Shown one piece after another: positions 871-14,860 of a stretch of 64,000 nt of DNA (the stretch's first letter is position 1; every line of letters begins with the position of its first letter). Both the position numbers and the translations under genes were made by a program. Source of the stretch: Escherichia phage momo; sequence record MN850580.1. One strand, written 5' to 3'. The notes beneath the pieces are model-generated. The model saw only the letters and a program-made list of their open reading frames with translations. It had not been told where the DNA came from and did not search any database.

Positions 871-1370
871 TAATTAAACCTTACTTTTTGTTTAAGGGCT
901 GTTGAATGGTTACCAGATTCATCTACCACATTTACAATCATATCATATACTTTGCCTTTGACAAGTACTTTGTAATCATTTTGTGAAAAAATGTATTCAA
1001 GTCTGTTTGTTTCTTTATTAACTGTCATTGGAGATTGAAATGCAGTGTCGAGGGTAATGAAAGCGGCTTCAATGCTATTAACATTGATACGTTTATTCTC
1101 GCAGTTATATAACTTTACACCCAAAAGGCATGAACTGTCAAATGGAATTTTAACAATTTCACTACAATTTCCTGAAATAAACGGTTTTCCACTCATTGGT
1201 GCATCAAGTAACCTACAAATAGTGAAAACGTCAGAGGCTCCACCATCACTTACATAACCTGAAAGGCTAACCCTTGAGCCAGCCTCTACAGATAATTTGT
1301 CAGTGATAATAAGAACACCTCTATACGAATGCACTCGTGTAGCATTTGAAATAGAGATAACTTCAGCCAT
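870..1370 (-). CDS. hypothetical protein (head/assembly module)
   Basis: 166-aa ORF, start overlaps stop of upstream gene. Confidence 0.4.
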   Translation of the reverse strand: MAEVISISNATRVHSYRGVLIITDKLSVEAGSRVSLSGYVSDGGASDVFTICRLLDAPMSGKPFISGNCSEIVKIPFDSSCLLGVKLYNCENKRINVNSIEAAFITLDTAFQSPMTVNKETNRLEYIFSQNDYKVLVKGKVYDMIVNVVDESGNHSTALKQKVRFN

Positions 1371-2852: not shown

Positions 2853-4454
2853 TCAACGTCTAAGCCCCTCATATGGGTTTCCTCTCACTAAGTCTGTGTG
2901 AGCACCCATTGATGGTGGCTTGAATAATTTAACTTCGTTAAGACTGTTGAAAGCATCACTGGTAGCATCCACTTGGTCATCTTTAGTTTTGCCATCACCA
3001 CAAAAGCCTTCAAGCTCTTGGAAATAAGCTTCGTTCCAACTACCTCTCAAAACTTTTACAAGTCCAGCTTCAGAAGCAGCAGAAAACCCCGCAAAGCGGG
3101 TAACTTTATCTTTATTTGTTGGTTTGGCTCTTGCTCGATAACCTTTCTCGGCAAGTTTCCTGATGAGGGATGTTGCGTAGGATTTACCAGCAGCGCCTGG
3201 GTCTTGAGGGATAAAAATACCAGTTCGCTTACCGTCACTTTCAGCAGTCAAATTAATTTGTGTTTCGACTCCAGAGGGTCTATCTCTAAATCTTACTACA
3301 TCAATGATATAATAGCAACCGTCTTTTTTAGATTTACCCATCTTAACACCTGCTGTCCAGTCTGGATTAGGGTTAATTTCAGATGGTAAAGTTGCTGCTA
3401 AGTCCCATGCCCTAACATCAAATACATCCTCTGGGAGTGAATCAACAATTTCACACCATTGTCTTTGCCAATAGTTTGAACCTTCTGCACGAGCCTTCCA
3501 GTTACCGAAACGAAGTCTTGCAACGTTTACAGGGGTGTTGTTTTCCAACTTACCGCGATACTTTGGTTCTAAGAAGTCAAGAATTGGGTTATCATCAATC
3601 GTACCAGAGATGAAGGTGTATGTTTGAGGAATCTCAAGAGGGAACATTTCAAGAATCTTGTCTCTCTCCCAATCAGAAACCATCACACCATCATTCATTA
3701 CATACCAACGAATACGACCACACTTTTCAGGGTCTGGATAACCTTCTTCATCTAAGAATGGTTCTACCCAATCATAAATAAAGTGGTCTCTGTCTGGGTT
3801 CATGGAAATCTTCATGTATGAATCACCTTCAGCACCAGAACGTAGACGGGTTTGTAGGTATGAAATCTGTGAAGCAGAGAAGTGTGTACCTTCGTCAAAG
3901 TAAATAGCTGAGTATTCAATACCCTGATGACCTTCAGCGTGCTTTTCAAGTTCTAGGTAGGTAAACTTGATAGTCGCCCCAGAAGGGAATGTGATAGTCA
4001 TTTTCTGCTCGTGAGGAATCCCACCAAACTTACCAAATAGTTTCTTTGCAGCAGGCCATAAACCACCTTGTAACTGTGTTGTATTTCGACGGAAATATAC
4101 AGCATTATAGTTAGGGTCTTCAATAAATCTTAAAGAGTCCATTAACAATGCAGCAGTTTTACCAGCACCAGCAGCACCACCATAAAGAACCAAGTCAGCA
4201 TTAGTGTTTAAAAAGACCTCTTGAGAACCCGGTTGAGGGGCTACATAGTTCTTATCAGTCATCAATTTAAAGATAAGGCGAACTTGGTCTGGTGTGTATC
4301 TTAATAAAGTCAGAATTTGAGTTGGAAGGAATTTAGAGGGGTCTTTACCGAATGATTTGATAATTTCTTTTACTTCATCAGAAAGCCCCAACTCTCCAGC
4401 TAGGACTTTCCTAACATCTTCCACTCGCTTCTGCTTAACAGCATTTAAGTCCAT
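2853..4454 (-). CDS. terL: terminase large subunit
   Basis: Walker A LYGGAAGAGKTAAL near N-terminus, ~530 aa; start set at MDLNAVKQK preceded by GGAGGTG. Confidence 0.85.
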   Translation of the reverse strand: MDLNAVKQKRVEDVRKVLAGELGLSDEVKEIIKSFGKDPSKFLPTQILTLLRYTPDQVRLIFKLMTDKNYVAPQPGSQEVFLNTNADLVLYGGAAGAGKTAALLMDSLRFIEDPNYNAVYFRRNTTQLQGGLWPAAKKLFGKFGGIPHEQKMTITFPSGATIKFTYLELEKHAEGHQGIEYSAIYFDEGTHFSASQISYLQTRLRSGAEGDSYMKISMNPDRDHFIYDWVEPFLDEEGYPDPEKCGRIRWYVMNDGVMVSDWERDKILEMFPLEIPQTYTFISGTIDDNPILDFLEPKYRGKLENNTPVNVARLRFGNWKARAEGSNYWQRQWCEIVDSLPEDVFDVRAWDLAATLPSEINPNPDWTAGVKMGKSKKDGCYYIIDVVRFRDRPSGVETQINLTAESDGKRTGIFIPQDPGAAGKSYATSLIRKLAEKGYRARAKPTNKDKVTRFAGFSAASEAGLVKVLRGSWNEAYFQELEGFCGDGKTKDDQVDATSDAFNSLNEVKLFKPPSMGAHTDLVRGNPYEGLRR

Positions 4455-4475
4455 TAAGCACCTCCGCAAATAGAA

Positions 4476-4898: not shown

Positions 4899-4974
4899 TG
4901 GAGAATCCGAAGGGACTCGAACCCTTATAAACCTGTTTTGCAGACAGGCACATATCCATTTCTGTCACGGATTC
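4899..4974 (-). tRNA. tRNA-Cys(GCA): tRNA-Cys (anticodon GCA), CCA encoded
   Basis: Manual cloverleaf: acceptor GAATCCG/CGGATTC, anticodon loop CUGCAAA, T-loop. Confidence 0.65.
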
Positions 4975-4978
4975 AAAT

Positions 4979-5071
4979 TGGAGGAAGATACCAGACTTGA
5001 ACTGGTACACCGATTTCTCAGCTACTGGCAGTTTAGCAAACTGCTCCCTTACCTTTTAGGGTTAATCTTCC
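4979..5071 (-). tRNA. tRNA-Ser(GCU): tRNA-Ser (anticodon GCU), long variable arm, CCA encoded
   Basis: 93 nt; acceptor GGAAGAT/ATCTTCC; anticodon loop UUGCUAA. Confidence 0.6.
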
Positions 5072-5072
5072 A

Positions 5073-5870
5073 TTATTTCTGTAATGCGCTCTTCATTTCT
5101 GGTGTTGCAATAGTGTCAATCACACCAGTTTTACAAGCATCGTCAAACCAGTCTGGTAAGATACCTGCTAAGAACCCATTGATATTCGTTTTAAGGTACT
5201 CTGCAATAAGGGCAGCTTCTTCTTCAATCATCTGCACAACTTCATCTGCATAAGCTGTAATCTTTGAAATACCTTCATTAATCTTACTGACAGCTTGGTT
5301 AGCTAAATCAGAAACAGTATCAAGACCCTTATCAATAGCATCTTGTAAGTCACTTAACACACCATTAACACTATCTAGTGTACTGTTCATCATGTCAATA
5401 GCTTTTTGACCATACTCTGTAGCAACACCCATGATACCACTGAATGGTGTACAACCAACTTGTTCTCCTGCTGCACCCATAACATTGGAATACCCCTTTG
5501 CTACCTGCATACGTGATGAAAACTCATCAATAGATTTTTGACCGTAGTCTGTCAGAGTTTTAGTAGTTGCTGTAGTGCTTGTAAGGCTTGTTGTAAAGCT
5601 GTTTAGAAGGACTGTTGTAAGTCCAGCAGCAACAAGTTTCTCCTTCATTGTAGGGTCTGTTACAGAACTAATAGAGCTTACAAGTGATGTAGAAGCAGCT
5701 ACGGTTCCACCGAGAACTGCTGCACCAGTAATAAGCGGGTTAGAGAACCCTTTACCAGTTTTTAAGAGATTAAAAATCTCCTTACCTTGTTCTGTCATCT
5801 CTTTCATTAAGCACCTTTGAAATTGGTAGTCCAGTGGGATTTGAACCCTCTTCTCATGTTTTTCAGACAC
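5073..5870 (-). CDS. hypothetical protein embedded in tRNA array
   Basis: 265-aa ORF between tRNA genes; Ser/Thr-rich middle region. Confidence 0.4.
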   Translation of the reverse strand: MSEKHEKRVQIPLDYQFQRCLMKEMTEQGKEIFNLLKTGKGFSNPLITGAAVLGGTVAASTSLVSSISSVTDPTMKEKLVAAGLTTVLLNSFTTSLTSTTATTKTLTDYGQKSIDEFSSRMQVAKGYSNVMGAAGEQVGCTPFSGIMGVATEYGQKAIDMMNSTLDSVNGVLSDLQDAIDKGLDTVSDLANQAVSKINEGISKITAYADEVVQMIEEEAALIAEYLKTNINGFLAGILPDWFDDACKTGVIDTIATPEMKSALQK

Positions 5871-5899
5871 GCGCTTTAACCATATAAGCTACTTGGACT
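5824..5899 (-). tRNA. tRNA-Phe(GAA): tRNA-Phe (anticodon GAA)
   Basis: Anticodon loop CUGAAAA, T-loop TTCAAAT, CCA encoded. Confidence 0.6.
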
Positions 5900-5905
5900 A
5901 TAAAT

Positions 5906-5981
5906 TGGGGTGACCTACGGGATTTGAACCCGTATAGACCATGTTCACAGCATGGGTCATTACCGTTTATGATAAGGCCAC
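5906..5981 (-). tRNA. tRNA-His(GUG): tRNA-His (anticodon GUG)
   Basis: Acceptor with one G-U pair; anticodon loop CUGUGAA; CCA encoded. Confidence 0.65.
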
Positions 5982-6012
5982 ATTTAAGGACTCTCGCAAG
6001 AATCCTTAGAAG

Positions 6013-6088
6013 TGGCAGCGGCATAAGGATTTGAACCTTAATAGGACAGCTTCAGAGGCTGCTGCATTGCCAGTTATGCTATACCGCT
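6013..6088 (-). tRNA. tRNA-Gln(CUG): tRNA-Gln (anticodon CUG)
   Basis: Anticodon stem GCAGC/GCUGU, loop CUCUGAA. Confidence 0.55.
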
Positions 6089-6093
6089 AAATT

Positions 6094-6172
6094 TGGTACT
6101 CCATATCGGATTCGAACCGATACATAACACAGATTTTAAGTCTGGCCTCTCTGCCAATTGGAGTAATGGAGC
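6094..6172 (-). tRNA. tRNA-Leu(UAA)?: tRNA with anticodon UAA (Leu by anticodon) but short variable loop
   Basis: Acceptor and T-arm clear; anticodon loop CUUAAAA; no long extra arm. Confidence 0.5.
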
Positions 6173-6174
6173 AT

Positions 6175-6250
6175 TGGCGGGGGATGTTGGAATTGAACCA
6201 ACTTCTTCGATTTCAAAGACCGAGGTTTTAACCTTGTAAACTAATCCCCT
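6175..6250 (-). tRNA. tRNA-Gln(UUG): tRNA-Gln (anticodon UUG)
   Basis: Anticodon stem UCGGU/AUCGA, loop CUUUGAA; possible 1-72 mismatch. Confidence 0.55.
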
Positions 6251-6258
6251 TTAAATCT

Positions 6259-6816
6259 TTACTTTCTCAGTGGATGAATAAAGAATGCCAACATAACTCT
6301 TTCCCTTGAGAATGCTCTTTCTTCTGGGACAACACTTTTTAGTTTCCATCCAACATAAATTCTCCAGTAAAACTGTTTACCAAAGATTTTAATTGACGGA
6401 ATAAAAGCGAATAATCCCCAAGCATTGTTGTTCCACATTAGGAGATAACCTGTCTGATTATCTTCAGGGTCAGAACTTACGTTGATATTACCTTTCCACT
6501 TAGTAACATCTTTTACATCTCTTCCTAATACATGGTAAGAGAAGTTATAAGCTTTGTTTCTCCAGAGCCATCCAACTCTCTGCATATAAACACCGAGCTT
6601 GCCAATCTTTCTAATCTTAGCCCATCTTTTAATGTGACCTTCATCACCATCAATAGGGTTGTCATATGTCTCCATCCATCTGAATCCAAAAGGTAGATGC
6701 CCTTTCTTCTCACTATAGAATGGAACTACAAAAGGTGCTAAGATAACTGCTAAGGTTGCTGCCAATGGGTCTAACAAAGCTAGGAAAATCCATGAAGCAT
6801 ACTTCAAATATCTCAT
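6259..6816 (-). CDS. hypothetical membrane protein embedded in tRNA array
   Basis: 185-aa ORF with hydrophobic N-terminal segment. Confidence 0.4.
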   Translation of the reverse strand: MRYLKYASWIFLALLDPLAATLAVILAPFVVPFYSEKKGHLPFGFRWMETYDNPIDGDEGHIKRWAKIRKIGKLGVYMQRVGWLWRNKAYNFSYHVLGRDVKDVTKWKGNINVSSDPEDNQTGYLLMWNNNAWGLFAFIPSIKIFGKQFYWRIYVGWKLKSVVPEERAFSRERVMLAFFIHPLRK

Positions 6817-6835
6817 TTAAATAGCCTCTTTAAAT

Positions 6836-6911
6836 TGGCGCAGGATAAGGGATTCGAACCCCTATTAACAGCTTCGTAGACTGCTGCTCTATCCATTTGA
6901 ACTAATCCTGC
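6836..6911 (-). tRNA. tRNA-Arg(ACG): tRNA-Arg (anticodon ACG)
   Basis: Perfect acceptor GCAGGAT/ATCCTGC; anticodon loop CUACGAA. Confidence 0.65.
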
Positions 6912-6916
6912 AAAAT

Positions 6917-6994
6917 TGGTGTTCCAAGACGGATTCGAACCGTCACTAGTACAAGGTTTGAGCTTGCATCCTCTGCCAATTGGGATATTGGAAC
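6917..6994 (-). tRNA. tRNA-Leu(CAA)?: tRNA with anticodon CAA (Leu by anticodon) but short variable loop
   Basis: Acceptor GUUCCAA/UUGGAAC; anticodon loop CUCAAAC. Confidence 0.5.
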
Positions 6995-6995
6995 A

Positions 6996-7070
6996 TGGTA
7001 CTCACTAAAGGACTTGAACCTTTTTCTTCATCTTGTAAGGGTGATGTTTTACCATATAAACTAAGCGAGT
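6996..7070 (-). tRNA. tRNA-Val(UAC): tRNA-Val (anticodon UAC)
   Basis: Anticodon loop CUUACAA; T-loop TTCAAGT. Confidence 0.55.
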
Positions 7071-7165
7071 ATGAAAGAGGTCTGAAGTTGTGCCGCTAAC
7101 TCAACTCCGTGGAATTTGTTACGGTCTTCAGTTGACACCAGCGGTCTTTCACTTGACCTCTGAAT

Positions 7166-7241
7166 TGGTGCTCCCACAAGGATTCGAACCCTGATAAGTT
7201 GCTTACAAGGCAACCGTAATAGCCAATTATACGATAGGAGC
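7166..7241 (-). tRNA. tRNA-Thr(UGU): tRNA-Thr (anticodon UGU)
   Basis: Anticodon stem GUUGC/GCAAC, loop CUUGUAA. Confidence 0.65.
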
Positions 7242-7248
7242 ATTAATT

Positions 7249-7323
7249 TGGAGCATCCAGAGGGAATCGAACCCTCAACCTCAGTTTGGAAGACTGTAAT
7301 TTTCCCGTTTAAACTATGGATGC
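7249..7323 (-). tRNA. tRNA-Gly(UCC): tRNA-Gly (anticodon UCC)
   Basis: Perfect acceptor GCAUCCA/UGGAUGC; anticodon loop CUUCCAA. Confidence 0.65.
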
Positions 7324-7329
7324 ACTAAT

Positions 7330-7403
7330 TGGTGGAGTCACTGAGAATTGAACTCAGTTCCCAAGTTTGCAAAACTCGAATTTTAACCATATAAACTATG
7401 ACC
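7330..7403 (-). tRNA. tRNA-Ala(UGC): tRNA-Ala (anticodon UGC)
   Basis: Acceptor GGGGUCA with G3-U70 pair (Ala identity element); anticodon loop UUUGCAA. Confidence 0.65.
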
Positions 7404-7410
7404 CCATTGT

Positions 7411-7486
7411 TTGGTACAGGTGGAGGGAATTGAACCCATCGTCTTACTGATTAAGAGTCAGCCGCATAACCATTTTGCTACACCTG
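7411..7486 (-). tRNA. tRNA-Lys(CUU): tRNA-Lys (anticodon CUU)
   Basis: Anticodon stem GCUGA/UCAGU, loop CUCUUAA; weak T-stem. Confidence 0.5.
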
Positions 7487-7493
7487 CATTAAT

Positions 7494-7571
7494 TTGGTAG
7501 GAGACAAGGGATTCGAACCCTCAAACATCTCGTTCTAAGCGAGATAGGTTTACCAATTACCGTCAATCTCC
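7494..7571 (-). tRNA. tRNA-Leu(UAG)?: tRNA with anticodon UAG (Leu by anticodon) but short variable loop
   Basis: Perfect anticodon stem UCUCG/CGAGA, loop CUUAGAA; 5-nt variable loop. Confidence 0.55.
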
Positions 7572-7830
7572 CATTAAATCTTTTTAGAGAACTTCTAAGA
7601 ACCTAAGCAACAAGGTTCCACAACAAGCTGTAATAACCTTAGAAGCCCTCTAAAAAGACCTAAAAAGGTCTTTGCATAGTCTTGTTTAATCCGGTGACTA
7701 GAACCTTTGGAGAGCTTGATATTATCTCTTCTCCGTGACACCTACTAGGTGCTTTACTGTGCGTGTACGACAATACACTAGGGATACCAAAGCAACATCC
7801 GAATGAAGCTTGGCTTTAAATCTTATTAGG

Positions 7831-7918
7831 CGGTAAGTAAAGGAGTCGAACCCTCACCGTATCTCTACAGTGGCAACTGTTTTCAAGACAGTTTGGCTAC
7901 CATTAGCCGCTACCTACC
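7831..7918 (-). tRNA. tRNA-Ser(UGA): tRNA-Ser (anticodon UGA), long variable arm, no encoded CCA
   Basis: Perfect anticodon stem ACUGU/ACAGU, loop CUUGAAA; discriminator G. Confidence 0.6.
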
Positions 7919-7931
7919 CCTAATAAGACTT

Positions 7932-8014
7932 TGGCATGGGACGGAGGAGTTGAACCACTTTGAAACGGTTTTGGAGGCCGTTGCTCATGCCTTAGAGTCT
8001 TAACATCGTCCCAC
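7932..8014 (-). tRNA. atypical tRNA-like gene (possible anticodon CCA, Trp) with extra nucleotides between acceptor and D region
   Basis: Clear acceptor GUGGGAC/GUCCCAU, T-arm and encoded CCA, but D-region does not fold canonically in manual fold. Confidence 0.4.
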
Positions 8015-8157
8015 ACTATAATTCGAAGCTTACCGTATTTTCACAACACTGTAAAGCCCCTTCTCAGATTATTTACATGTTCTGGAAAACATGAGATACA
8101 GACCACCTCCTTACACGGAGACCCGATAAGGTCGTCTAAGTAATCTGCTAACTAAAT

Positions 8158-8239
8158 TGGTCGAGGCGGCAGGACTCGAACCCGCATACTCCACTTACTC
8201 GGTTAACGGCGGTTTAGAAGACCGCTGAGATACGCCCCG
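8158..8239 (-). tRNA. atypical tRNA-like gene; one perfect 5-bp stem with loop CUUCUAA (UCU), no canonical D-arm
   Basis: Acceptor CGGGGCG/CGCCUCG, T-arm and CCA present; body folds ambiguously. Confidence 0.35.
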
Positions 8240-8487
8240 TAATTATCTTTAAAGACTCTCTTAGAAAGCCCTTAAAGATGCCCACCTTATTAATCATACC
8301 GTGGGCTAGTACGCCAAATTCTTTGATGAGGGATTGGAAGACCTCACTGGTGTTTAGCCTATCAAGCTACTGCCAGAAAAACATTGTCGTTTGCATTTAT
8401 TTTAAATTTGCAAAATAGACGCTACGCAACGAAAACTAAGGTTACTATAAAGTAGTCGCATCTCAATGTCAACAACTTTATTGAAAT

Positions 8488-8563
8488 TGGTACTGGTAGG
8501 TGGAATCGAACCACCGATGTTCCCTTATCAGGGGAGTGTTATAACCTTCTTAACTATACCAGC
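8488..8563 (-). tRNA. tRNA-Ile(GAU): tRNA-Ile (anticodon GAU)
   Basis: Anticodon loop CUGAUAA; T-arm GGUGG/CCACC. Confidence 0.6.
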
Positions 8564-8564
8564 T

Positions 8565-8641
8565 TGGAGGTTCAGATGGGAATCGAACCCACATTCATAG
8601 GGCTTATGAGACCCTTGCATTACCTTATCTGCGACTGAACC
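8565..8641 (-). tRNA. tRNA-Met(CAU): tRNA-Met (anticodon CAU)
   Basis: Perfect acceptor GGUUCAG/CUGAACC; anticodon loop CUCAUAA. Confidence 0.6.
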
Positions 8642-8645
8642 ATAT

Positions 8646-8720
8646 TGGTAGAAGTGGAGGGATTCGAACCCATCGCCTGTCAGATTAAAAGTCTGCCGCA
8701 TCACCATTCTGCTACACTTC
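8646..8720 (-). tRNA. tRNA-Lys(UUU): tRNA-Lys (anticodon UUU)
   Basis: Anticodon stem GCAGA/UCUGA (one G-U), loop CUUUUAA. Confidence 0.6.
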
Positions 8721-8872
8721 CATTAAATTATCTTTGTAGATAAGCTACCCAGACTTGCTTAAGGTCTGTAGCGATGTGACTTTTTGGGTTTAAATCTAGA
8801 ATTTACCCTTTCACCCTTTGTGGTCGCATACTCACAGGTAAGCTTAATAACTTATCTACAAAGATAATTACC

Positions 8873-9003
8873 AGACCGTTGTTTATCATCTTAAGTGCTA
8901 CCATTACACCAACTCGACCTCTGCCGAGTGAAGGAATCGAACCTTCGCCTTTTCTTTACCGAGAAATAGATTGTTTAAGTTTTGCTGTAAACGGTCTTCT
9001 GTA
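8873..9003 (-). repeat. tRNA-spacer hairpin repeat (CCAGACC...GGTCTTCTG) enclosing a T-arm-like hairpin
   Basis: Inverted termini CCAGACCGTT / AACGGTCTTCTG; internal GAAGG-AATCGAA-CCTTC with no matching acceptor stem. Confidence 0.4.
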
Positions 9004-9013
9004 AATTTGTTGA

Positions 9014-9113
9014 GCCAGACCAAGTTTTAAATTTTTTCAAAATTGAATTGGCTTGAAAATATCATACATTCTTGCTGTATTTGGTCTTCTACTCCTTTAA
9101 AGAATACTCGTAA
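9014..9113 (-). repeat. tRNA-spacer hairpin repeat (CCAGACC...GGTCTTCT)
   Basis: Same terminal inverted repeat as 8873-9003. Confidence 0.4.
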
Positions 9114-9152
9114 GAACTCTTTAAGGGAGGGGCTAAATAGCCCTCTCAAAAT

Positions 9153-9230
9153 TGGCGGTTACGAAGGGATTTGAACCCTCATCATCTCCCGTGACAGGGG
9201 AGTATTTTAACCAAATTAAACTACATAACC
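9153..9230 (-). tRNA. tRNA-Asp(GUC): tRNA-Asp (anticodon GUC)
   Basis: Perfect anticodon stem CUCCC/GGGAG, loop CUGUCAC. Confidence 0.65.
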
Positions 9231-9235
9231 TTTAT

Positions 9236-9323
9236 TGGTGTGCCGTGTAGGAGTCGAACCTACCGAGTCTCAATGACAAGGGATTTACAGTCCCCACCGC
9301 TACCATCTACGGGATAACGACAC
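9236..9323 (-). tRNA. tRNA-Tyr(GUA): tRNA-Tyr (anticodon GUA), long variable arm
   Basis: 85-nt body; anticodon loop CUGUAAA. Confidence 0.6.
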
Positions 9324-9331
9324 ATTTAATT

Positions 9332-9408
9332 TGGCGGTTAGTCAGGGATTCGAACCCTGTGCCATTCGCTTAACAGGCGACCGCACATACCTTATGTGCT
9401 TCCTAACC
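9332..9408 (-). tRNA. tRNA-Asn(GUU): tRNA-Asn (anticodon GUU)
   Basis: Anticodon loop CUGUUAA; T-arm CAGGG/CCCUG. Confidence 0.55.
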
Positions 9409-9418
9409 TTAATACATT

Positions 9419-9481
9419 GCCAGACCGTGTTTTTTCTTTTATCCGCAAAAAAGTATTTTGTTGCTGAATACGGTCTTCTGC
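9419..9481 (-). repeat. tRNA-spacer hairpin repeat (CAGACCGT...ACGGTCTTCTG)
   Basis: Terminal inverted repeat, immediately 3' of tRNA in transcript orientation. Confidence 0.4.
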
Positions 9482-9486
9482 AAAAT

Positions 9487-9563
9487 TGGAGGCGGGTGCA
9501 GGAGTCGAACCTGCCGATACCATGCTAATGAGACATGTGAGACGCCCTTTCTCTATACCCGCA
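9487..9563 (-). tRNA. tRNA-Met/Ile2(CAU): tRNA with anticodon CAU (initiator Met, elongator Met or lysidine Ile2)
   Basis: Anticodon stem CAUGU/GCAUG, loop CUCAUUA; possible 1-72 mismatch. Confidence 0.5.
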
Positions 9564-9574
9564 ATTCTTAATGA

Positions 9575-9648
9575 CCAGACCAAATCTCTTCTTTGTCCGA
9601 TTTACCTTCAGATGAATAAGATTAAGTTTGCTGTAATTGGTCTTCTGT
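9575..9648 (-). repeat. tRNA-spacer hairpin repeat (CCAGACCAA...TTGGTCTTCTG)
   Basis: Terminal inverted repeat as in the other spacers. Confidence 0.4.
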
Positions 9649-9654
9649 CAAAAC

Positions 9655-9732
9655 TGGCGTTCCAGAAGGGATTTGAACCCTCAGATATCCACTTTGAAAG
9701 AGTGGTGACTATACCATTTTGTCTACTGGAAC
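9655..9732 (-). tRNA. tRNA-Glu(UUC): tRNA-Glu (anticodon UUC)
   Basis: Perfect acceptor GUUCCAG/CUGGAAC; anticodon loop CUUUCAA. Confidence 0.65.
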
Positions 9733-9739
9733 ATTAATT

Positions 9740-9816
9740 TGGTCTCTGTTGGAGGACTTGAACCTCCGGCCTTACCGCCCCAAACGGAACGCTCTACCAA
9801 TCTGAGCTAAACAGAG
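9740..9816 (-). tRNA. tRNA-Pro(UGG): tRNA-Pro (anticodon UGG)
   Basis: Perfect acceptor CUCUGUU/AACAGAG; D-arm GCUC/GAGC; anticodon loop UUUGGGG. Confidence 0.65.
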
Positions 9817-9981: not shown

Positions 9982-11397
9982 TTACCAGATATAACGGTCA
10001 ATCATTACTGCTTTGAGCATTACACTGATTGGGTCAAACTTCTCACCACCAAGCAGAGCTTTTAAAGTGGCTGGAGAGAACCCTGATACCATTGCTACAC
10101 CGTTATCCTTAACAGATACTTCGCAAGTACCATTACGGTTTGCTAAGTACCAGAATACCAGTTGTGGCATCTCATATCCAGCTTTTTTGTACTTACTCTG
10201 AATTGCTTCAAAGTTTGTACGACCGTTAGCTCCATCAACCTGATTGAACTCCATATCGGAGAAGATGATAAGCTTACTTGGCATATCTTTCTGAGTCAAG
10301 TTGTTTCTTTTACCTGTTTCAAGAATGCGGTCAAAAGCTGCTTGTAAGTTAGTTGAGCCATATTCAACGTGTCGCATCACCTGACGATGACGGTTTCGTA
10401 AATCACCACTCAGTTCGATGAAGTGAGGGTTTGTTGAATAAACCATTAACTCATTCTTAAAGCAACCTGTATTGCGTTCTGCTACATACAAGGCAAGTGA
10501 TACACCAATATCCAGAGCAGTAATGGAGCCAAAATTCACCCAAGACATTGAACTTGATACATCAGACATACACAAGATGTTTTCACCTTCTGCCATCCAG
10601 TTTGGTAGTGCTTTCCACTGCTCATTAGCAACATCTGCATTACCATACTTGACAGATTTAATCACATCGTATGGGTAAACAGCACCAGCGTTAATCTTAG
10701 TCTCACCTTTTGATAAGGACTCGATGTAAGATTTGTAACGCTCTCCATCTTTACGGTTAAACAGTTTTTGGTAACGTGCAGCAGCAAGTGAAGGAATCTT
10801 ACTGTAGTCAATCTTACCAAACTCGTTAGCAGAGATTTTTTGCTCAACTGTATCAGATAGTGCAGACAACAGTGTGCGGTACTCTTTCTCACTCAAGTTG
10901 GCAAACTTGCAGAAACGTTTTACAAACTGCTTATGACGTGGTTTGACTCGTGGTAACCACTTAGCTGCCAAACCTGCTGTTGCAGGGTCTAGTAATGCTG
11001 CTTCTAAATGCTTGAAGGCATCTGTCTCGAAACGAGTACCCACGAAGATTTTGAAATCATCAAAGCGACCAAGCTCTGCAATCTTATCCATAATGCGAAG
11101 AACCTGTGTAGACTCTAGAACTTTATCTTCAATCGCTTGAAGTAAAACAGTTCGGAAAGCTTTACGCTCACCCATACCTTCTCGTACATCTCGCATATGC
11201 AGTAAAATACGAACTGCAACATCAACATCCTCATGCAAAGCTTTGTAGAACAAGTCTGGTAAGATTTCTACATTGCTACGGCTAGAACCAGCAGCTTTGT
11301 AAAAGTCCACAAGAGCAGACATTGATGAAGTATGGTTTACAGCACCATTTTCAGTTCGACCTGCATGAAGGTGCACATGTTTAAATAATTCGCTCAT
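9982..11397 (-). CDS. vWA-domain protein with helical N-terminal region (possibly Ro60/TROVE-like or DUF2828-like)
   Basis: 471 aa; C-terminal MIDAS-like motif SDVSSSM followed by GSTN and FSDME; alpha-helical N-terminal ~270 aa. Confidence 0.5.
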   Translation of the reverse strand: MSELFKHVHLHAGRTENGAVNHTSSMSALVDFYKAAGSSRSNVEILPDLFYKALHEDVDVAVRILLHMRDVREGMGERKAFRTVLLQAIEDKVLESTQVLRIMDKIAELGRFDDFKIFVGTRFETDAFKHLEAALLDPATAGLAAKWLPRVKPRHKQFVKRFCKFANLSEKEYRTLLSALSDTVEQKISANEFGKIDYSKIPSLAAARYQKLFNRKDGERYKSYIESLSKGETKINAGAVYPYDVIKSVKYGNADVANEQWKALPNWMAEGENILCMSDVSSSMSWVNFGSITALDIGVSLALYVAERNTGCFKNELMVYSTNPHFIELSGDLRNRHRQVMRHVEYGSTNLQAAFDRILETGKRNNLTQKDMPSKLIIFSDMEFNQVDGANGRTNFEAIQSKYKKAGYEMPQLVFWYLANRNGTCEVSVKDNGVAMVSGFSPATLKALLGGEKFDPISVMLKAVMIDRYIW

Positions 11398-12261: not shown

Positions 12262-12476
12262 AAATCGCAGATATTATAGATTTATATCAAACTGCAAAGA
12301 GTCATGGCTATATAACCTCAATTGGAAAGAATAGTCACTATGATGCTTTGACTGGAATGTATTTCAGGGCAATGGCTCAATCTAGTGAACAACACTTAAT
12401 GGTTTCTTCCAGTGAGTTTACTTCGTTTCTCTATTGCAGCAAAATTATAAATCGCAGGAGAACTGAAAAATGTTAA
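12243..12476 (+). CDS. hypothetical protein
   Basis: 77-aa ORF in plus-strand cluster. Confidence 0.3.
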   Translation: MCSSQLEIADIIDLYQTAKSHGYITSIGKNSHYDALTGMYFRAMAQSSEQHLMVSSSEFTSFLYCSKIINRRRTEKC

Positions 12477-13060
12477 CAGTAAGTTTTAATTACAATAGTG
12501 ATGGCTCTGTATCAATTAATTCACCATATGCAAATGACCTACTTAAAGAGCTAGTCAATCAGTGTGATAGAGGTCTTCACTATGTTCAAAATTCTTTTAA
12601 ACAGAAGACTATTGCTAATAACTTGATGCGTGTAACAGTGACGGCATCGAATCCAAATTATGACTTTGATAGTGAAAGTCCGTACTCATTAGTTGCGCTT
12701 GGAGAGAGCAGCCAATTCAAACTTGTTTGCCACGACTCAGAAACATTTCTTAAGGTATTTTCCAACCTTATCCATAATAATAAGTACAGCTACGTTGATA
12801 GTAGTGTAAACTTCTATCCAGCAAACTATACATGTTTGTTGGTTGATAATATGAGAAAAAGTAAGCAAGAGCCTACAGAAATTTCATTTGATGTGAACTC
12901 TAGTCCAGACGCAGAAACAAGTAAGAACTTTGATATGAGTTACGCATTGTCACTTAGTAAGAAATCCGAGTTCATTGATTATGTCAATGGATTTGGTTTT
13001 AAGTTTGATGAGAGTATGAATCTTAAAAAACTTAAGAACCTACTTAAGACCAAAGCTTAA
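12470..13060 (+). CDS. hypothetical protein
   Basis: 196-aa ORF followed by hairpin. Confidence 0.45.
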   Translation: MLTVSFNYNSDGSVSINSPYANDLLKELVNQCDRGLHYVQNSFKQKTIANNLMRVTVTASNPNYDFDSESPYSLVALGESSQFKLVCHDSETFLKVFSNLIHNNKYSYVDSSVNFYPANYTCLLVDNMRKSKQEPTEISFDVNSSPDAETSKNFDMSYALSLSKKSEFIDYVNGFGFKFDESMNLKKLKNLLKTKA

Positions 13061-13069
13061 GTGTGAATA

Positions 13070-13093
13070 GGGGCTGATGCCCCTTTAACTATT
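13070..13093 (+). terminator. putative terminator hairpin
   Basis: GGGGC-TGAT-GCCCC followed by TTTAACTATTT. Confidence 0.35.
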
Positions 13094-13107: not shown

Positions 13108-13479
13108 ATGAAAGCTAAGAGTGCAAAAGACTTTTATTGCTTCCTACAATCCTATATCAATTCCGTGCAAAATGGTGAAAGGTACAACCTTAATGATGTT
13201 ATCCCAACACCTTTGACATGGAGACTCAGTAAGTGGCCTGAAGAAGATATTACACCAACAAGCGAACAGCGTACCTACAAACCTGAAATCAATATTCCAG
13301 ATTCTGAGAATCTATTATATCCAATGTTCCATATTGTTGGTCTTGGAAGATTCCTTATGGATATCCAGTATGTAATTGGTAAAGGTTATAAGGTTAAAGG
13401 TATTGTTGTTGGTGATGTATCTCCGCATCACAAAGGTTATTTTAGACTAAACGCACATTTAGAGGCTAAAAAGAAATGA
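13108..13479 (+). CDS. hypothetical protein, paralog of N-terminal domain of next gene
   Basis: 123 aa; shared motifs with 13476-14360 (K..DF..F....I..V..G.RY, FMD(I/L)QYxI). Confidence 0.5.
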   Translation: MKAKSAKDFYCFLQSYINSVQNGERYNLNDVIPTPLTWRLSKWPEEDITPTSEQRTYKPEINIPDSENLLYPMFHIVGLGRFLMDIQYVIGKGYKVKGIVVGDVSPHHKGYFRLNAHLEAKKK

Positions 13480-14360
13480 TTAAAGCAAAGACTTACCCAG
13501 ACTTCAAAGAGTTTGTGAAGGGTTTCATTGCAAATGTAAAGGCTGGTAAGAGATATGATTTTAGAACATATCAAGAGGCTATTTTACCACTTACCTATAG
13601 TTCATATTGGCCTGAAGCTGATATTGCAGAAGTTGAGAAGTTTGACTACAAACCAGACTACAAAGTTCCATTTAGTGACGAATTGCTTTACAGTGTTGGT
13701 GCACAGATGAGAACTGCTGATTTCTTCATGGATTTGCAGTATGCAATCATCAATGGTAAAGATGTTGACACAATTTACTGTGAATGGTTGGCAAGAGTTA
13801 AGCCGTTCTCAATGTTGAATGCTAAGTTGAAGGATGCTATTAAGCCACCAGCAATTACTCAGCAACCGACAGGTCAAACAGTCAATGAGGGTGGCACACT
13901 TACTCTAAGCATTCTAGCAACTAACGCCACTGGATATCAGTGGAAGAAGGATGGTGAGGACATCCCTAGTGCCAATTCTGCAACTTACACAAAACAGTCA
14001 GTAGCACCTTCTGACGCTGGTTCATACACTTGTGTTGTATCTGGAGAGGGTGGAACAAGTGTTACTTCAGATGCAGCAACAGTTACTGTGAATGCACTTC
14101 CAGTAATCACTCAACAGCCAGCAAATCAAGAAATCACTGAAGGTGAGACCTTAACGCTGAATGTTGTGGCTACTGGTGCAACAAGTTACCAGTGGAAGAA
14201 AGGTGAGGAAGACATCCTCGATGCAACTACTGCAACTTACACCAAAGAAGGTGCAACCACCGCTGATGCAGGAAGCTACACTTGTGTAGTGACTGGCGCA
14301 GGTGGCTCTGTAACATCTAACGCAGCAACAGTTACAGTTAATCCAGCAGGGGAGGCATAA
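13476..14360 (+). CDS. paralogous N-domain fused to two tandem Ig-like (I-set type) domains
   Basis: Two repeats TLTL...ATGYQWKKDGEDI...ATYTK...DAGSYTCVV.G.GG..TS.AATVTVN. Confidence 0.6.
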   Translation: MIKAKTYPDFKEFVKGFIANVKAGKRYDFRTYQEAILPLTYSSYWPEADIAEVEKFDYKPDYKVPFSDELLYSVGAQMRTADFFMDLQYAIINGKDVDTIYCEWLARVKPFSMLNAKLKDAIKPPAITQQPTGQTVNEGGTLTLSILATNATGYQWKKDGEDIPSANSATYTKQSVAPSDAGSYTCVVSGEGGTSVTSDAATVTVNALPVITQQPANQEITEGETLTLNVVATGATSYQWKKGEEDILDATTATYTKEGATTADAGSYTCVVTGAGGSVTSNAATVTVNPAGEA

Positions 14361-14824
14361 TGCAACTCTCAAGAAAAGGTTTAGAGGCTATTAAGTTCTT
14401 TGAAGGTCTGAAGTTAGAGGCTTACGAAGACTCTGCCGGAATCCCAACAATCGGTTATGGAACAATCCGTATTGACGGAAAACCTGTTAAGATGGGTATG
14501 AAAATTACTGCTGAACAAGCTGAACAGTATCTTCTTGCAGATGTTGAAAAATTCGTTGCAGCAGTGAATAAAGCCATCAAGGTTCCAACTTCTCAGAACG
14601 AGTTTGATGCACTTGTAAGTGAAACATACAACATCGGTATCACAGCTATGCAGGATTCCACATTTATCAAGCGCCACAATGCTGGTAATAAGGTCGGTTG
14701 TGCAGAAGCTATGCAGTGGTGGAACAAGGTTACAGTCAAAGGTAAGAAGGTCACTTCAAACGGCCTGAAAAACAGACGTAGAATGGAAGCTGACATTTAT
14801 CTTGACAGTGTATACCCAAAGTAA
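14360..14824 (+). CDS. lysozyme / endolysin (GH24 muramidase family)
   Basis: N-terminal FEGLKLEAYEDSAGIPTIGYGT matches phage lysozyme catalytic region; 154 aa. Confidence 0.7.
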   Translation: MQLSRKGLEAIKFFEGLKLEAYEDSAGIPTIGYGTIRIDGKPVKMGMKITAEQAEQYLLADVEKFVAAVNKAIKVPTSQNEFDALVSETYNIGITAMQDSTFIKRHNAGNKVGCAEAMQWWNKVTVKGKKVTSNGLKNRRRMEADIYLDSVYPK

Positions 14825-14834
14825 TATCTTCATA

Positions 14835-14860
14835 GGCTCCTTCGGGAGCCTTTTTTATTT
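14835..14860 (+). terminator. rho-independent terminator after lysozyme
   Basis: GGCTCC-TTCG-GGAGCC followed by TTTTTTATTTT. Confidence 0.65.

What the first reader, a model, noticed from the sequence alone, without database searches (positions are those of the whole stretch)
13108..14360. Tandem paralogs, the second fused to two eukaryote-like Ig (I-set) domains
ORFs 13108-13479 and the N-terminal ~125 aa of 13476-14360 are clear paralogs (shared FMD(I/L)QYxI and surrounding pattern). The second copy gained two tandem Ig-like domains with the classic Y-W-K...D-G-Y-C-V signature. Phage Ig-like domains are usually on virion surface proteins, yet these genes sit beside the lysozyme in a non-structural cluster.
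Basis: seen in the sequence. Interest (0 to 1): 0.4.

Follow-up and report, generated by a model that had tools for sequence, protein, structure and literature searches.

The report
Phage head decoration gene plus truncated duplicate
The Ig-domain gene is the already solved Hoc-like protein that plugs into the capsid hexamers of Felix O1-type phages, so it is ordinary. The gene in front of it is an undescribed, Ig-less copy of its capsid-binding domain whose role is still open.

Summary
ORF 13108-13479 (123 aa) and the first ~120 aa of ORF 13476-14360 (294 aa) are homologous (BLASTP 38% identity, E=3e-16; profile-profile E=1e-19). The second ORF carries two Ig domains (Pfam Ig_3 1.2e-22, I-set 6.3e-16).

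The window is a Felixounavirus, 98% identical to known isolates. The 294-aa protein is Hex-Dec, equivalent to Felix O1 gp36, Bas63 bas63_0124 and Sf14 gp20. It matches PDB 9NCF chain S at E=1.7e-245 and 9C2D chain S at E=3.8e-168. [quoted passage not shown] It is therefore a virion surface protein. Its position next to the endolysin, far from the head genes, is published and conserved across Ounavirinae.

What the papers I could search do not describe is the upstream gene, a CapBD-only paralog (Felix O1 gp37, Sf14 gp21).
- It is transcribed late together with gp36.
- It is under purifying selection (dN/dS 0.05-0.20).
- It is kept in four lineages and has decayed to a pseudogene in one clade.
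- It is missing from two virion proteomes and was not modelled in two cryo-EM virions.
- It lacks the Arg79 capsid anchor.

Its function is unknown.

The parts
12470..13060 (+). Conserved 196-aa ORF (Felix O1 ORF38 homolog, phrog_4034, unknown function). It is the upstream syntenic neighbour and serves only as a context marker.
   Evidence: The same neighbour occurs in Felix O1, Sf14, Bas63, Moogle, mistaenkt, EC6, phiEa21-4 and metagenomic contig L015.
13070..13083 (+). GC-rich hairpin GGGGC-TGAT-GCCCC, followed by TTTAAC and TATTTATAAGG, in the 47-nt spacer before the paralog. Possibly a transcription boundary and late promoter region (inferred).
   Evidence: Sequence. The hairpin is conserved in REP11 and Z31 even though their paralog has decayed. 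Felix O1 RT-PCR shows ORF38 peaking at 25 min and ORF37/36 at 60 min.
13108..13479 (+). Ig-less paralog of the Hex-Dec capsid-binding domain (123 aa; Felix O1 gp37, Sf14 gp21, bas63_0125, VpaE1 ORF40c; phrog_4463 'unknown function').
   Evidence: Homology. dN/dS is 0.05-0.20. Foldseek top hits of a low-confidence model are 9c2d_S and 9ncf_S.
13462..13465 (+). GAGG Shine-Dalgarno for Hex-Dec, embedded in the 3' end of the paralog, 10 nt before the ATG. The stop and start codons overlap as ATGA at 13476-13479, which suggests translational coupling (inferred).
   Evidence: The TTAGAGG motif is retained in the pseudogene remnant of REP11 and Z31.
13476..14360 (+). Hex-Dec, the Hoc-like hexamer-centre capsid decoration protein (294 aa; Felix O1 gp36 homolog, 92% identical). 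Databases mislabel it 'tail protein'.
   Evidence: PDB 9NCF_S E=1.7e-245 and 9C2D_S E=3.8e-168. phrog_3995 E=5e-171. Identities.
13476..13841 (+). Capsid-binding domain (CapBD, aa 1-122), carrying Arg79 and Arg107.
   Evidence: It aligns residue for residue with the modelled 120-122 residues of 9C2D_S and 9NCF_S. R79 and R107 are invariant in 8 phages. Their role as salt bridges to MCP Asp221 comes from PMC11821841.
13845..14090 (+). Ig-like domain 1 (aa 124-205).
   Evidence: Pfam Ig_3, I-set and V-set stretches. 66% identical to domain 2.
14100..14339 (+). Ig-like domain 2 (aa 209-288).
   Evidence: Pfam Ig_2 and I-set, residues 209-288.
14360..14824 (+). Endolysin (Phage_lysozyme). Its start overlaps the Hex-Dec stop codon (TAATG). 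It is the downstream syntenic neighbour.
   Evidence: Pfam PF00959 E=6.6e-41. Junction sequence.
14834..14851 (+). Terminator-like hairpin plus T-run after the endolysin. Probably the end of this small transcription unit.

Best explanation
The locus is the Felix O1 gp37-gp36 gene pair of a Felixounavirus.

Gene 13476-14360 encodes Hex-Dec, the Hoc-like head decoration protein. In the solved Bas63 and Sf14 virions, its N-terminal 122-residue capsid-binding domain (CapBD) inserts as a monomer into the central depression of each of the 60 pentamer-adjacent hexamers of the T=9 capsid. It is held partly by Arg79 and Arg107 salt bridges to Asp221 of the major capsid protein. That this window's protein does the same is inferred by homology. 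The two C-terminal I-set-type Ig domains project from the head as a flexible fibre. Their likely role, inferred by analogy with T4 Hoc, is weak adhesion to host or environmental surfaces, or control of particle aggregation. The gene has sat next to the endolysin, ~10 kb or more from the head genes, since before the Ounavirinae genera split.

Gene 13108-13479 is a duplicate of the CapBD alone.
- It is read late, together with Hex-Dec.
- Its 3' end carries the ribosome-binding site for Hex-Dec, and the two genes are translationally coupled (ATGA overlap).
- It is kept under purifying selection but evolves 2-4 times faster than the CapBD.
- It is dispensable, because one clade carries it as a pseudogene.
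- It has lost the Arg79 anchor.

My best guess for its role is inferred, not shown. I think it is still a ligand of the capsomer centre that acts transiently or at low copy during head assembly, for example on procapsid hexamers or on the hexamers that Hex-Dec leaves empty. I do not think it is a stable major virion component.
For: Identity of the phage and of Hex-Dec:
- The region is 98.5% identical in DNA to Escherichia phage LinBro, and 231 Felixounavirus/Mooglevirus records cover at least 80% of it.
- Hex-Dec matches PDB 9NCF_S at E=1.7e-245 and 9C2D_S at 3.8e-168 over residues 1-290.
- The papers describe CapBD plus 1-4 Ig domains, a monomer at hexamer centres, one copy per asymmetric unit, and a gene more than 10 kb from the structural module.
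- R79 and R107 are invariant in 8 phages. MCP Asp221 is conserved, with Sf14 and Felix O1 MCPs 93% identical.
- Felix O1 gp36 was found in virions with 14 peptides and 44% coverage.

The paralog:
- Homology is shown.
- Felix O1 ORFs 36 and 37 both peak at 60 min along with morphogenesis genes, whereas neighbours 35 and 38 peak at 25 min.
- dN/dS is 0.05-0.20, against 0.01-0.05 for the CapBD.
- The tandem pair with identical synteny occurs in Felixounavirus, Mooglevirus and Suspvirus, and in a divergent 87-kb metagenomic phage whose paralog is 45% identical.
- It is absent from the Felix O1 mass-spectrometry list. It is labelled 'hypothetical' rather than 'structural' in VpaE1, whose 22 MS-detected proteins add only gp54, gp58 and gp68 to the Felix O1 set.
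- No PDB chain other than Hex-Dec matches it.
- About 19 of 252 records lack it. In REP11 and Z31 it is a remnant with a lost start codon and an internal deletion.
- Arg79 is replaced by an invariant Gly.
Against: For Hex-Dec: nothing substantial. Its presence on this particular phage's capsid is inferred by homology, and the MCP gene lies outside the window.

For the paralog's proposed capsid-related role:
- There is no direct evidence of capsid binding.
- Both cryo-EM papers report no density on the other hexamers.
- The protein has seven MS-friendly tryptic peptides, yet neither virion proteome reports it.
- One of the two known capsid-anchoring arginines is gone, and the other position is variable (H/Q/R).
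- The AF2 model is low confidence (pLDDT 55.8), so even retention of the fold rests mainly on sequence.
- The Felix O1 mass-spectrometry table is truncated to the top 17 proteins with at least 25% coverage, so absence from it is weak evidence either way.
Confidence: 0.8

Rival explanations
1. The small paralog is a genuine but overlooked virion protein. In this reading it is an Ig-less decoration specialised for the 20 hexamers on the icosahedral three-fold axes, which Hex-Dec does not occupy.
For: - It has a full-length CapBD fold signature with 30 shared invariant columns.
- It is expressed late with Hex-Dec.
- The Sf14 paper attributes Hex-Dec's avoidance of true three-fold hexamers to shifted Asp221 geometry relative to Arg79 and Arg107. 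Arg79 is invariantly changed and the Arg107 position varies in the paralog.
- A 14-kDa monomer on a three-fold axis would be smeared by icosahedral averaging (inference).
Against: - Both structural papers state that no density is seen on the other hexamers.
- It is not in the Felix O1 or VpaE1 virion proteomes, although it has seven good tryptic peptides and 12-copy proteins were detected.
- Viable phages with an intact Hex-Dec carry it as a pseudogene.
Confidence: 0.12
2. The paralog has been neofunctionalised and no longer touches the capsid. It would be a soluble late protein with another partner, for example a host factor, a defence-system decoy that mimics the CapBD, or Hex-Dec itself.
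For: - It evolves 2-4 times faster than the CapBD.
- It is further from the outgroup CapBDs than Hex-Dec is.
- Its C-terminal hairpin region and the Arg79 site are remodelled, with their own family-specific invariant residues such as FYCFLQ, HIVGLG and HKGYFRLNA.
- It is absent from virion data.
Against: - No domain, motif or family hit points to any other activity (Pfam 0 hits, PHROG 'unknown').
- Its strict linkage and co-timing with Hex-Dec in every lineage that has it is most simply explained by a related function.
Confidence: 0.3
3. The paralog is a functionless leftover of a duplication. It would survive only because its 3' end holds the Hex-Dec ribosome-binding site and its 5' region holds the promoter.
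For: - It has decayed in a clade of about 19 records, and exactly the flanks are retained: the hairpin and upstream region, and the 3' end with GAGG.
- It has not been detected in virions.
Against: - The reading frame is intact at 118-124 aa in about 230 records and four lineages, down to 45% identity.
- dN/dS is 0.05-0.20 with dS up to 1-2. That is incompatible with neutral drift.
Confidence: 0.05
4. The 294-aa protein is a tail protein, as databases say, or a non-structural Ig protein linked to lysis, as its position suggests.
For: - The GenBank and PHROG label is 'tail protein'.
- It is translationally coupled to the endolysin.
Against: - Its homologs are modelled in capsid hexamer centres in two independent cryo-EM structures.
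- The Bas63 paper explicitly calls the 'tail protein' label inaccurate.
- The label traces back to the 2010 Felix O1 proteome naming of gp36.
Confidence: 0.02

Closest known systems
Ounavirinae Hex-Dec: Bas63 bas63_0124 (PDB 9NCF chain S), Sf14 gp20 (PDB 9C2D/9C3A chain S), Felix O1 gp36
   Same: - The N-terminal CapBD is the same (87-98% identical).
- Arg79 and Arg107 are present.
- The Ig repeats are of the same I-set type.
- The synteny is the same: 196-aa ORF, paralog, Hex-Dec, endolysin.
- The upstream paralog is present in all three phages.
   Different: Only the number of Ig repeats differs. This window and Felix O1 have two, Sf14 three, Bas63 four, and EC6 and mistaenkt one. The Bas63 paper already documents this variation.
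[quoted passage not shown]
   Same: It works alike. A monomer sits at the hexamer centre, with a small globular capsid-binding domain plus a string of Ig-like domains projecting outward. The PHROG 'Hoc-like head decoration' families hit the Ig region.
   Different: - The domain order is reversed: in Hoc the capsid-binding domain is C-terminal.
- The capsid-binding domains are topologically distinct and not detectably homologous (PMC12609058). The PHROG Hoc-like hits cover only aa 120-292.
- Hex-Dec occupies only 60 of 80 hexamers.
T5 pb10 decoration protein
   Same: [quoted passage not shown] PDB 'Decoration protein' chains 5LXK_A and 8ZVI_a match the Ig domain at about 2e-12.
   Different: There is no similarity in the capsid-binding domain; the hits cover only aa 128-207. 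pb10 has one Ig domain. No stand-alone paralog is known to me (from memory, not tested).
Erwinia phage phiEa21-4 gp38 (Kolesnikvirus 'conserved structural protein') and metagenomic relatives P0101-P0105
   Same: The CapBD is homologous (hmmsearch E from 9e-10 to 3e-5; hhalign E=2.8e-24). The gene occupies the same slot between the ORF38-like gene and the endolysin.
   Different: The C-terminal module is a Big_2-type Ig-like domain or a low-complexity tail instead of I-set repeats. No small paralog is present.

Membership tests
Ounavirinae Hex-Dec (Hoc-like hexamer-centre decoration) - for ORF 13476-14360 | N-terminal capsid-binding domain homologous to the modelled residues 1-~120 of 9NCF_S and 9C2D_S | tested here: met
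   phmmer E=1.7e-245 and 3.8e-168, aligned 1-290. CapBD identity to Bas63, Sf14 and Felix O1 is 97, 87 and 98%.
Ounavirinae Hex-Dec (Hoc-like hexamer-centre decoration) - for ORF 13476-14360 | One to four C-terminal Ig-like repeats | tested here: met
   Two repeats. Pfam Ig_3 80.7 bits, Ig_2 65.6 and I-set 58.7, all above their cut-offs. The repeats are 66% identical to each other.
Ounavirinae Hex-Dec (Hoc-like hexamer-centre decoration) - for ORF 13476-14360 | Capsid-anchoring Arg79 and Arg107 (salt bridges to MCP Asp221 in Sf14) | tested here: met
   R79 and R107 are present here and in all 8 phages compared. Asp221 is conserved between the Sf14 and Felix O1 MCPs. The role of these residues is taken from PMC11821841.
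Ounavirinae Hex-Dec (Hoc-like hexamer-centre decoration) - for ORF 13476-14360 | Gene located outside the head module, immediately upstream of the endolysin | tested here: met
   Terminase and portal lie at 2853-4469 and 1370-2845 on the opposite strand, beyond the tRNA cluster.
Ounavirinae Hex-Dec (Hoc-like hexamer-centre decoration) - for ORF 13476-14360 | Physical presence at hexamer centres of this phage's capsid | not testable with these tools
   Inferred from homologs only: the cryo-EM structures 9NCF and 9C2D, and Felix O1 gp36 in the virion proteome.
Hex-Dec CapBD family - for ORF 13108-13479 (small paralog) | Full-length sequence homology to the CapBD | tested here: met
   BLASTP E=3e-16. 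PDB hits at 1.2e-11. hhalign probability 99.2%, E=1e-19, 117 columns.
Hex-Dec CapBD family - for ORF 13108-13479 (small paralog) | Same fold as the solved CapBD | tested here: inconclusive
   The AF2 models are low confidence (pLDDT 55.5 and 55.8). Even so, Foldseek against the PDB ranks 9c2d_S and 9ncf_S first (probability 0.99, TM 0.53-0.55, E~1e-2). All other hits have E>2.
Hex-Dec CapBD family - for ORF 13108-13479 (small paralog) | Capsid-anchoring Arg79 and Arg107 | tested here: not met
   Arg79 is replaced by an invariant Gly in all paralogs. The Arg107 position is His, Gln or Arg.
Hex-Dec CapBD family - for ORF 13108-13479 (small paralog) | Ig-like C-terminal extension | tested here: not met
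   The protein ends at the CapBD-linker boundary (LNAHLEAKKK*). Pfam gives 0 hits.
Hex-Dec CapBD family - for ORF 13108-13479 (small paralog) | Component of the virion | tested here: inconclusive
   This rests on literature only. It is not in the Felix O1 mass-spectrometry list, not flagged as structural in VpaE1, and not modelled in 9NCF or 9C2D.
T4 Hoc family | Homologous capsid-binding domain at the C-terminus, preceded by Ig domains | tested here: not met
   The domain order is reversed. The PHROG Hoc-like families match only the Ig region, aa 120-292. The Bas63 paper reports a distinct topology and minimal sequence conservation. It works like Hoc but is not a member.
Pfam immunoglobulin clan (Ig_3 / Ig_2 / I-set) | Score above the gathering threshold; W in strand C and the D-x-G-x-Y-x-C motif in strand F | tested here: met
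   The sequence reads YQWKK...DAGSYTCVV in both domains. The strand-B Cys is absent, so there is no canonical disulfide.

The most novel reading that the evidence does not exclude
The Ig-less paralog (Felix O1 gp37 / Sf14 gp21) is a second hexamer-centre ligand tuned to the capsomers that Hex-Dec cannot occupy. These would be the 20 hexamers on the icosahedral three-fold axes, or hexamers of the unexpanded procapsid. Felix O1-type heads would then use two paralogous plugs to read out two hexamer conformations. The small plug would have been missed because a 14-kDa monomer on a symmetry axis is averaged away and because the published proteome lists are truncated.
Probability: 0.12. Interest if true: 0.55.

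Novelty: new member of a known kind. Interest (0 to 1): 0.27.

Why it matters
For the Ig protein it matters little, because it is a solved and published decoration protein. The main practical point is that most database records, and the PHROG family, still call it a 'tail protein', which is wrong.

The upstream paralog is a small but real gap.
- Two recent virion structures of phages that encode it do not mention it.
- It is conserved, late-expressed and derived from a domain whose only known job is to recognise one particular hexamer conformation.
- If it still binds capsomers, it offers a natural pair of probes for how decoration proteins discriminate quasi-equivalent hexamers.
- It would also give a ready-made, Ig-free anchoring module for display on Felix O1-type heads, in the way T5 pb10 and T4 Hoc are used.

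If it does not bind capsomers, it is an example of a capsid-binding domain recruited to another late function.

Tried and rejected
1. Programmed -1 frameshift fusing the paralog to Hex-Dec. The window has T-AAA-AAG just before the stop codon, and Hex-Dec lies in the -1 frame. However, Sf14 and Moogle read GCT-AAG-AAA, and in mistaenkt the frame offset is +1 with an 8-nt overlap. There is therefore no conserved slippery site. Rejected in favour of ordinary ATGA coupling.

2. A basic paralog attracted to the acidic Asp221 ring. The window protein has pI 9.1, against 5.5 for the CapBD. Mooglevirus, Suspvirus and metagenomic paralogs are acidic, with pI 5.2-6.1. The property is not conserved. Rejected.

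3. Sequence trace of the pseudo-C2 (L1/L2) symmetry reported for the CapBD. hhalign of the N-terminal half against the C-terminal half gives probability 0.3% or less. Not detectable.

4. Structure prediction of the paralog. The single-sequence run and the 18-sequence alignment both gave pLDDT of about 55. The family is too shallow. An exhaustive HMM search found only 12 representatives among 1.84 billion proteins.

5. Searching IMG/VR for the divergent paralog P0099 found nothing. An exact-sequence look-up did find its contigs.

6. A consensus late-promoter motif. TATTTATAAGG with up to 1 mismatch occurs 6 times against about 2 expected, but not in an interpretable pattern. The sigma-70 scan was not enriched.

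7. Virion proteome lists. The wV8 paper and the Sf14 supplement do not list minor proteins. The VpaE1 list is a figure, so I used its text and Table S1 instead.

8. The Gifsy defence paper on Felix O1 has no link to these genes.

9. A third CapBD or Ig copy in the window: none found.
Full report
**1.
The ORF listing gives ORFs 13108..13479 (+, 123 aa) and 13476..14360 (+, 294 aa), followed by a 154-aa ORF at 14360..14824. The first two overlap by ATGA. The second and third overlap as TAATG.

BLASTP of the two proteins gives 38/101 identities, E=3e-16, covering residues 1-99 of the short protein and 2-100 of the long one. Family-versus-family hhalign gives probability 99.2%, E=1e-19 over 117 columns, which is the whole short protein. 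A MAFFT alignment of 9 short and 9 long homologs has 30 invariant columns. The shared motif is F-[LF]-M-D-[IL]-Q-Y-x-I.

Pfam finds two Ig domains in the long protein: Ig_3 1.2e-22, Ig_2 4.9e-18 and I-set 6.3e-16, all above their gathering scores, at about aa 124-205 and 209-288. Pfam finds nothing in the short protein. The two Ig domains are 66% identical to each other. Each has YQWKK...DAGSYTCVV but only one Cys, so the canonical Ig disulfide is absent. Neither module recurs elsewhere in the window.

**2. What the window is.**
The 2.5-kb region is 98.5% identical to Escherichia phage LinBro, and 231 records of Felixounavirus and Mooglevirus phages cover at least 80% of it. The window carries 25 tRNA genes at 4899-9816 on the minus strand. 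Terminase (2853-4469, minus strand) and portal (1370-2845, minus strand) lie at its left end.

The head module therefore runs off the left edge of the window, and the major capsid protein gene is outside it. The two genes of interest are transcribed divergently from the head module, on the other side of the tRNA cluster.

**3. The 294-aa protein is a solved capsid decoration protein.**
Against PDB sequences it matches three chains:
- 9NCF chain S ('Immunoglobulin-like domain protein', 460 aa), E=1.7e-245
- 9C2D and 9C3A chain S ('Tail protein | Putative tail protein', 372 aa), E=3.8e-168

Both matches align from residue 1. These are the icosahedral capsid reconstructions of Felixounavirus Bas63 (PMC12609058) and Mooglevirus Sf14 (PMC11821841).

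The papers report the following:
- The protein is called Hex-Dec in Bas63 and gp20 in Sf14.
- It binds as a monomer in the centre of hexamers, one copy per asymmetric unit. That means the 60 pentamer-adjacent hexamers of the T=9 shell and not the 20 on the three-fold axes.
- In Sf14 it is anchored by Arg79 and Arg107 to Asp221 of three MCP subunits.
- It resembles T4 Hoc in function and architecture, but the domain order is reversed and the binding domain is unrelated.
- The Bas63 authors state that the gene lies more than 10 kb outside the structural module and that 'tail protein' is a misannotation.

Arg79 and Arg107 are present in the window protein and in seven other phages from three genera. 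Asp221 is conserved between the Sf14 and Felix O1 MCPs, which are 93% identical.

In Felix O1 the ortholog is ORF36, 294 aa and 92% identical. It was detected in CsCl-purified virions with 14 peptides and 44% coverage.

**4. The position next to the endolysin is ancient.**
The order 196-aa ORF, (paralog), Hex-Dec, endolysin is found in these genomes:
- Felix O1
- Sf14
- Bas63
- Moogle
- Suspvirus mistaenkt
- EC6
- a divergent 87-kb metagenomic contig
- Erwinia phage phiEa21-4, without the paralog

In phiEa21-4 the gene (gp38, 'conserved structural protein') is CapBD plus a Big_2 domain. An exhaustive HMM search of 1.84 billion representatives found only 12 family members. The distant ones are CapBD+Big_2, CapBD+Ig, or CapBD plus a Lys/Ser-rich tail. 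The CapBD is thus a narrow, Ounavirinae-centred module that has swapped its outward-facing domain several times.

**5. The upstream 123-aa gene is the less-known part.**
It is Felix O1 ORF37, Sf14 gp21, bas63_0125 and VpaE1 ORF40c. Its PHROG family (phrog_4463) is 'unknown function'. Neither structural paper mentions it: 'paralog' occurs 0 times in the Bas63 paper, and 'gp21' occurs 0 times in the Sf14 main text.

What I could establish:
- (a) It is a real gene. The reading frame is intact at 118-124 aa in about 230 phage records and 51 protein clusters. Nei-Gojobori dN/dS is 0.05-0.20 at dS up to ~2, compared with 0.01-0.05 for the CapBD of Hex-Dec.
- (b) The duplication is old. The pair exists in a metagenomic lineage where the paralogs are 45% identical and the CapBDs 57% identical to those of the window.
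- (c) The short copy is the derived one. The outgroup has only the long form, and the Hex-Dec CapBD scores closer to outgroup CapBDs than the paralog does (136 versus 98).
- (d) It is co-expressed with Hex-Dec. In Felix O1 RT-PCR, ORFs 36 and 37 peak at 60 min with the tail and head genes 53, 63, 64, 72, 73, 76 and 77. Their immediate neighbours 35 and 38 peak at 25 min. A GC-rich hairpin at 13070-13083 precedes the paralog. A GAGG at 13462-13465 inside the paralog serves Hex-Dec.
- (e) It is dispensable. About 19 of 252 records lack it. In REP11 and Z31 the 193-nt gap is a decayed remnant with the start codon lost and ~180 nt deleted. The upstream hairpin and the 3' end with the Hex-Dec ribosome-binding site are preserved. 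REP11 keeps an intact 293-aa Hex-Dec.
- (f) It has not been seen in virions. It is absent from the Felix O1 list. It is annotated 'hypothetical', not 'structural', in VpaE1, whose 22 MS-detected proteins differ from Felix O1's only by gp54, gp58 and gp68. No PDB chain besides Hex-Dec matches it. It would yield seven well-sized tryptic peptides.
- (g) Its putative binding face has changed. Arg79 is an invariant Gly in all paralogs. The Arg107 position is His, Gln or Arg. The C-terminal hairpin region carries its own invariant motif, HKGYFRLNA.
- (h) Fold prediction is poor (pLDDT ~55). Nevertheless the model's only meaningful PDB neighbours are 9c2d_S and 9ncf_S (probability 0.99, TM ~0.54).

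**6. Mechanism.**
- Shown by others and transferred here by near-identity: Hex-Dec plugs 60 hexamer centres through its CapBD and displays two Ig domains.
- Inferred by analogy with Hoc: the Ig fibre mediates weak adhesion or aggregation control. No experiment exists for Ounavirinae, and the Bas63 authors say its role and essentiality are unknown.
- For the paralog I commit, at modest confidence (~0.35), to a capsid-related accessory role that leaves no stable trace, or only a low-copy one, in mature virions. An example is transient binding to hexamer centres during assembly or maturation.
- The main rivals are a non-capsid neofunctionalised protein (~0.3), an overlooked decoration of the three-fold hexamers (~0.12), and a functionless remnant (~0.05, contradicted by dN/dS).

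**7. Things that did not pan out.**
- A -1 frameshift fusion of the two genes is not conserved.
- The basic pI of the window paralog is not a family trait.
- The pseudo-C2 symmetry of the CapBD leaves no sequence repeat.
- No convincing late-promoter motif emerged.
- Bas63 and Sf14 both show an unidentified helix-rich trimeric density at the tail-spike tip. I note it but have no evidence linking it to this protein.

**8. Verdict.**
The finding is accurate as an observation and largely ordinary as biology. The Ig protein is already known and structurally solved, and its odd genomic position is documented. The residual interest is the conserved, late-expressed, Ig-less CapBD paralog. It appears not to have been discussed in the literature I could search, and its function is open. 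Novelty: a new, unremarked member of a known family. Interest: about 0.27.

Noticed in passing
window 4899-9816 (- strand): A cluster of 25 tRNA genes separates the Hex-Dec/endolysin unit from the terminase/portal end of the head module.
   Followed up: no
window 9982-11397 (- strand): A 471-aa ORF with Pfam DUF7788 (1.7e-43) and DUF2828 (3.9e-29) lies directly beside the tRNA cluster. RefSeq labels the Felix O1 ortholog (ORF42) 'RNA-binding protein'. A conserved RNA-binding-type protein next to a tRNA array may be worth a separate look.
   Followed up: partly
window 13070-13083, and L008/L003 equivalents: The hairpin GGGGC-TGAT-GCCCC between the 196-aa ORF and the paralog is conserved even in phages where the paralog has decayed. 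It coincides with a switch from 25-min to 60-min peak transcription in Felix O1 (ORF38 versus ORF37/36). It is possibly a terminator with a late promoter behind it.
   Followed up: partly
L008 (REP11) 2306-2497; L003 (Z31) 3806-3997: A clade of Felixounaviruses (REP5, REP8-12, Z31, vB_CECAV_041, SP116, Tf and others; about 19 of 252 records) carries only a decayed remnant of the paralog. The start codon is lost and there is a ~180-nt internal deletion. REP11 and Z31 have the same structure, which suggests a single ancestral loss.
   Followed up: yes
L003 (Shigella phage Z31) 3998-4570: In Z31, Hex-Dec itself is split into a 134-aa CapBD-only ORF and a 55-aa fragment. This is either a genuine Ig-less truncation or a sequencing frameshift.
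   Followed up: no
GenBank GU169904.1 'Staphylococcus phage SA1' 143190-143558: A 147-kb record labelled as a Staphylococcus phage carries genes 99% identical to this E. coli/Salmonella Felixounavirus. It looks like a mixed or contaminated assembly.
   Followed up: no
Bas63 and Sf14 virions (literature, PMC12609058): [quoted passage not shown] Felix O1 gp23 (9.7 kDa) is MS-detected but has no assigned location. No link to the present genes was established.
   Followed up: no
window 14834-14851 (+): A strong terminator-like hairpin (AGGCTCC-TTCG-GGAGCCT plus a T-run) lies right after the endolysin, closing the paralog / Hex-Dec / endolysin unit.
   Followed up: no
L012 (phiEa21-4) 2336-2950; proteins P0101-P0105: The same capsid-binding domain is fused to Big_2-type Ig-like domains in Erwinia phages, and to a Lys/Ser-rich tail in one metagenomic relative. 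The outward-facing module has therefore been exchanged repeatedly on a constant anchor.
   Followed up: partly
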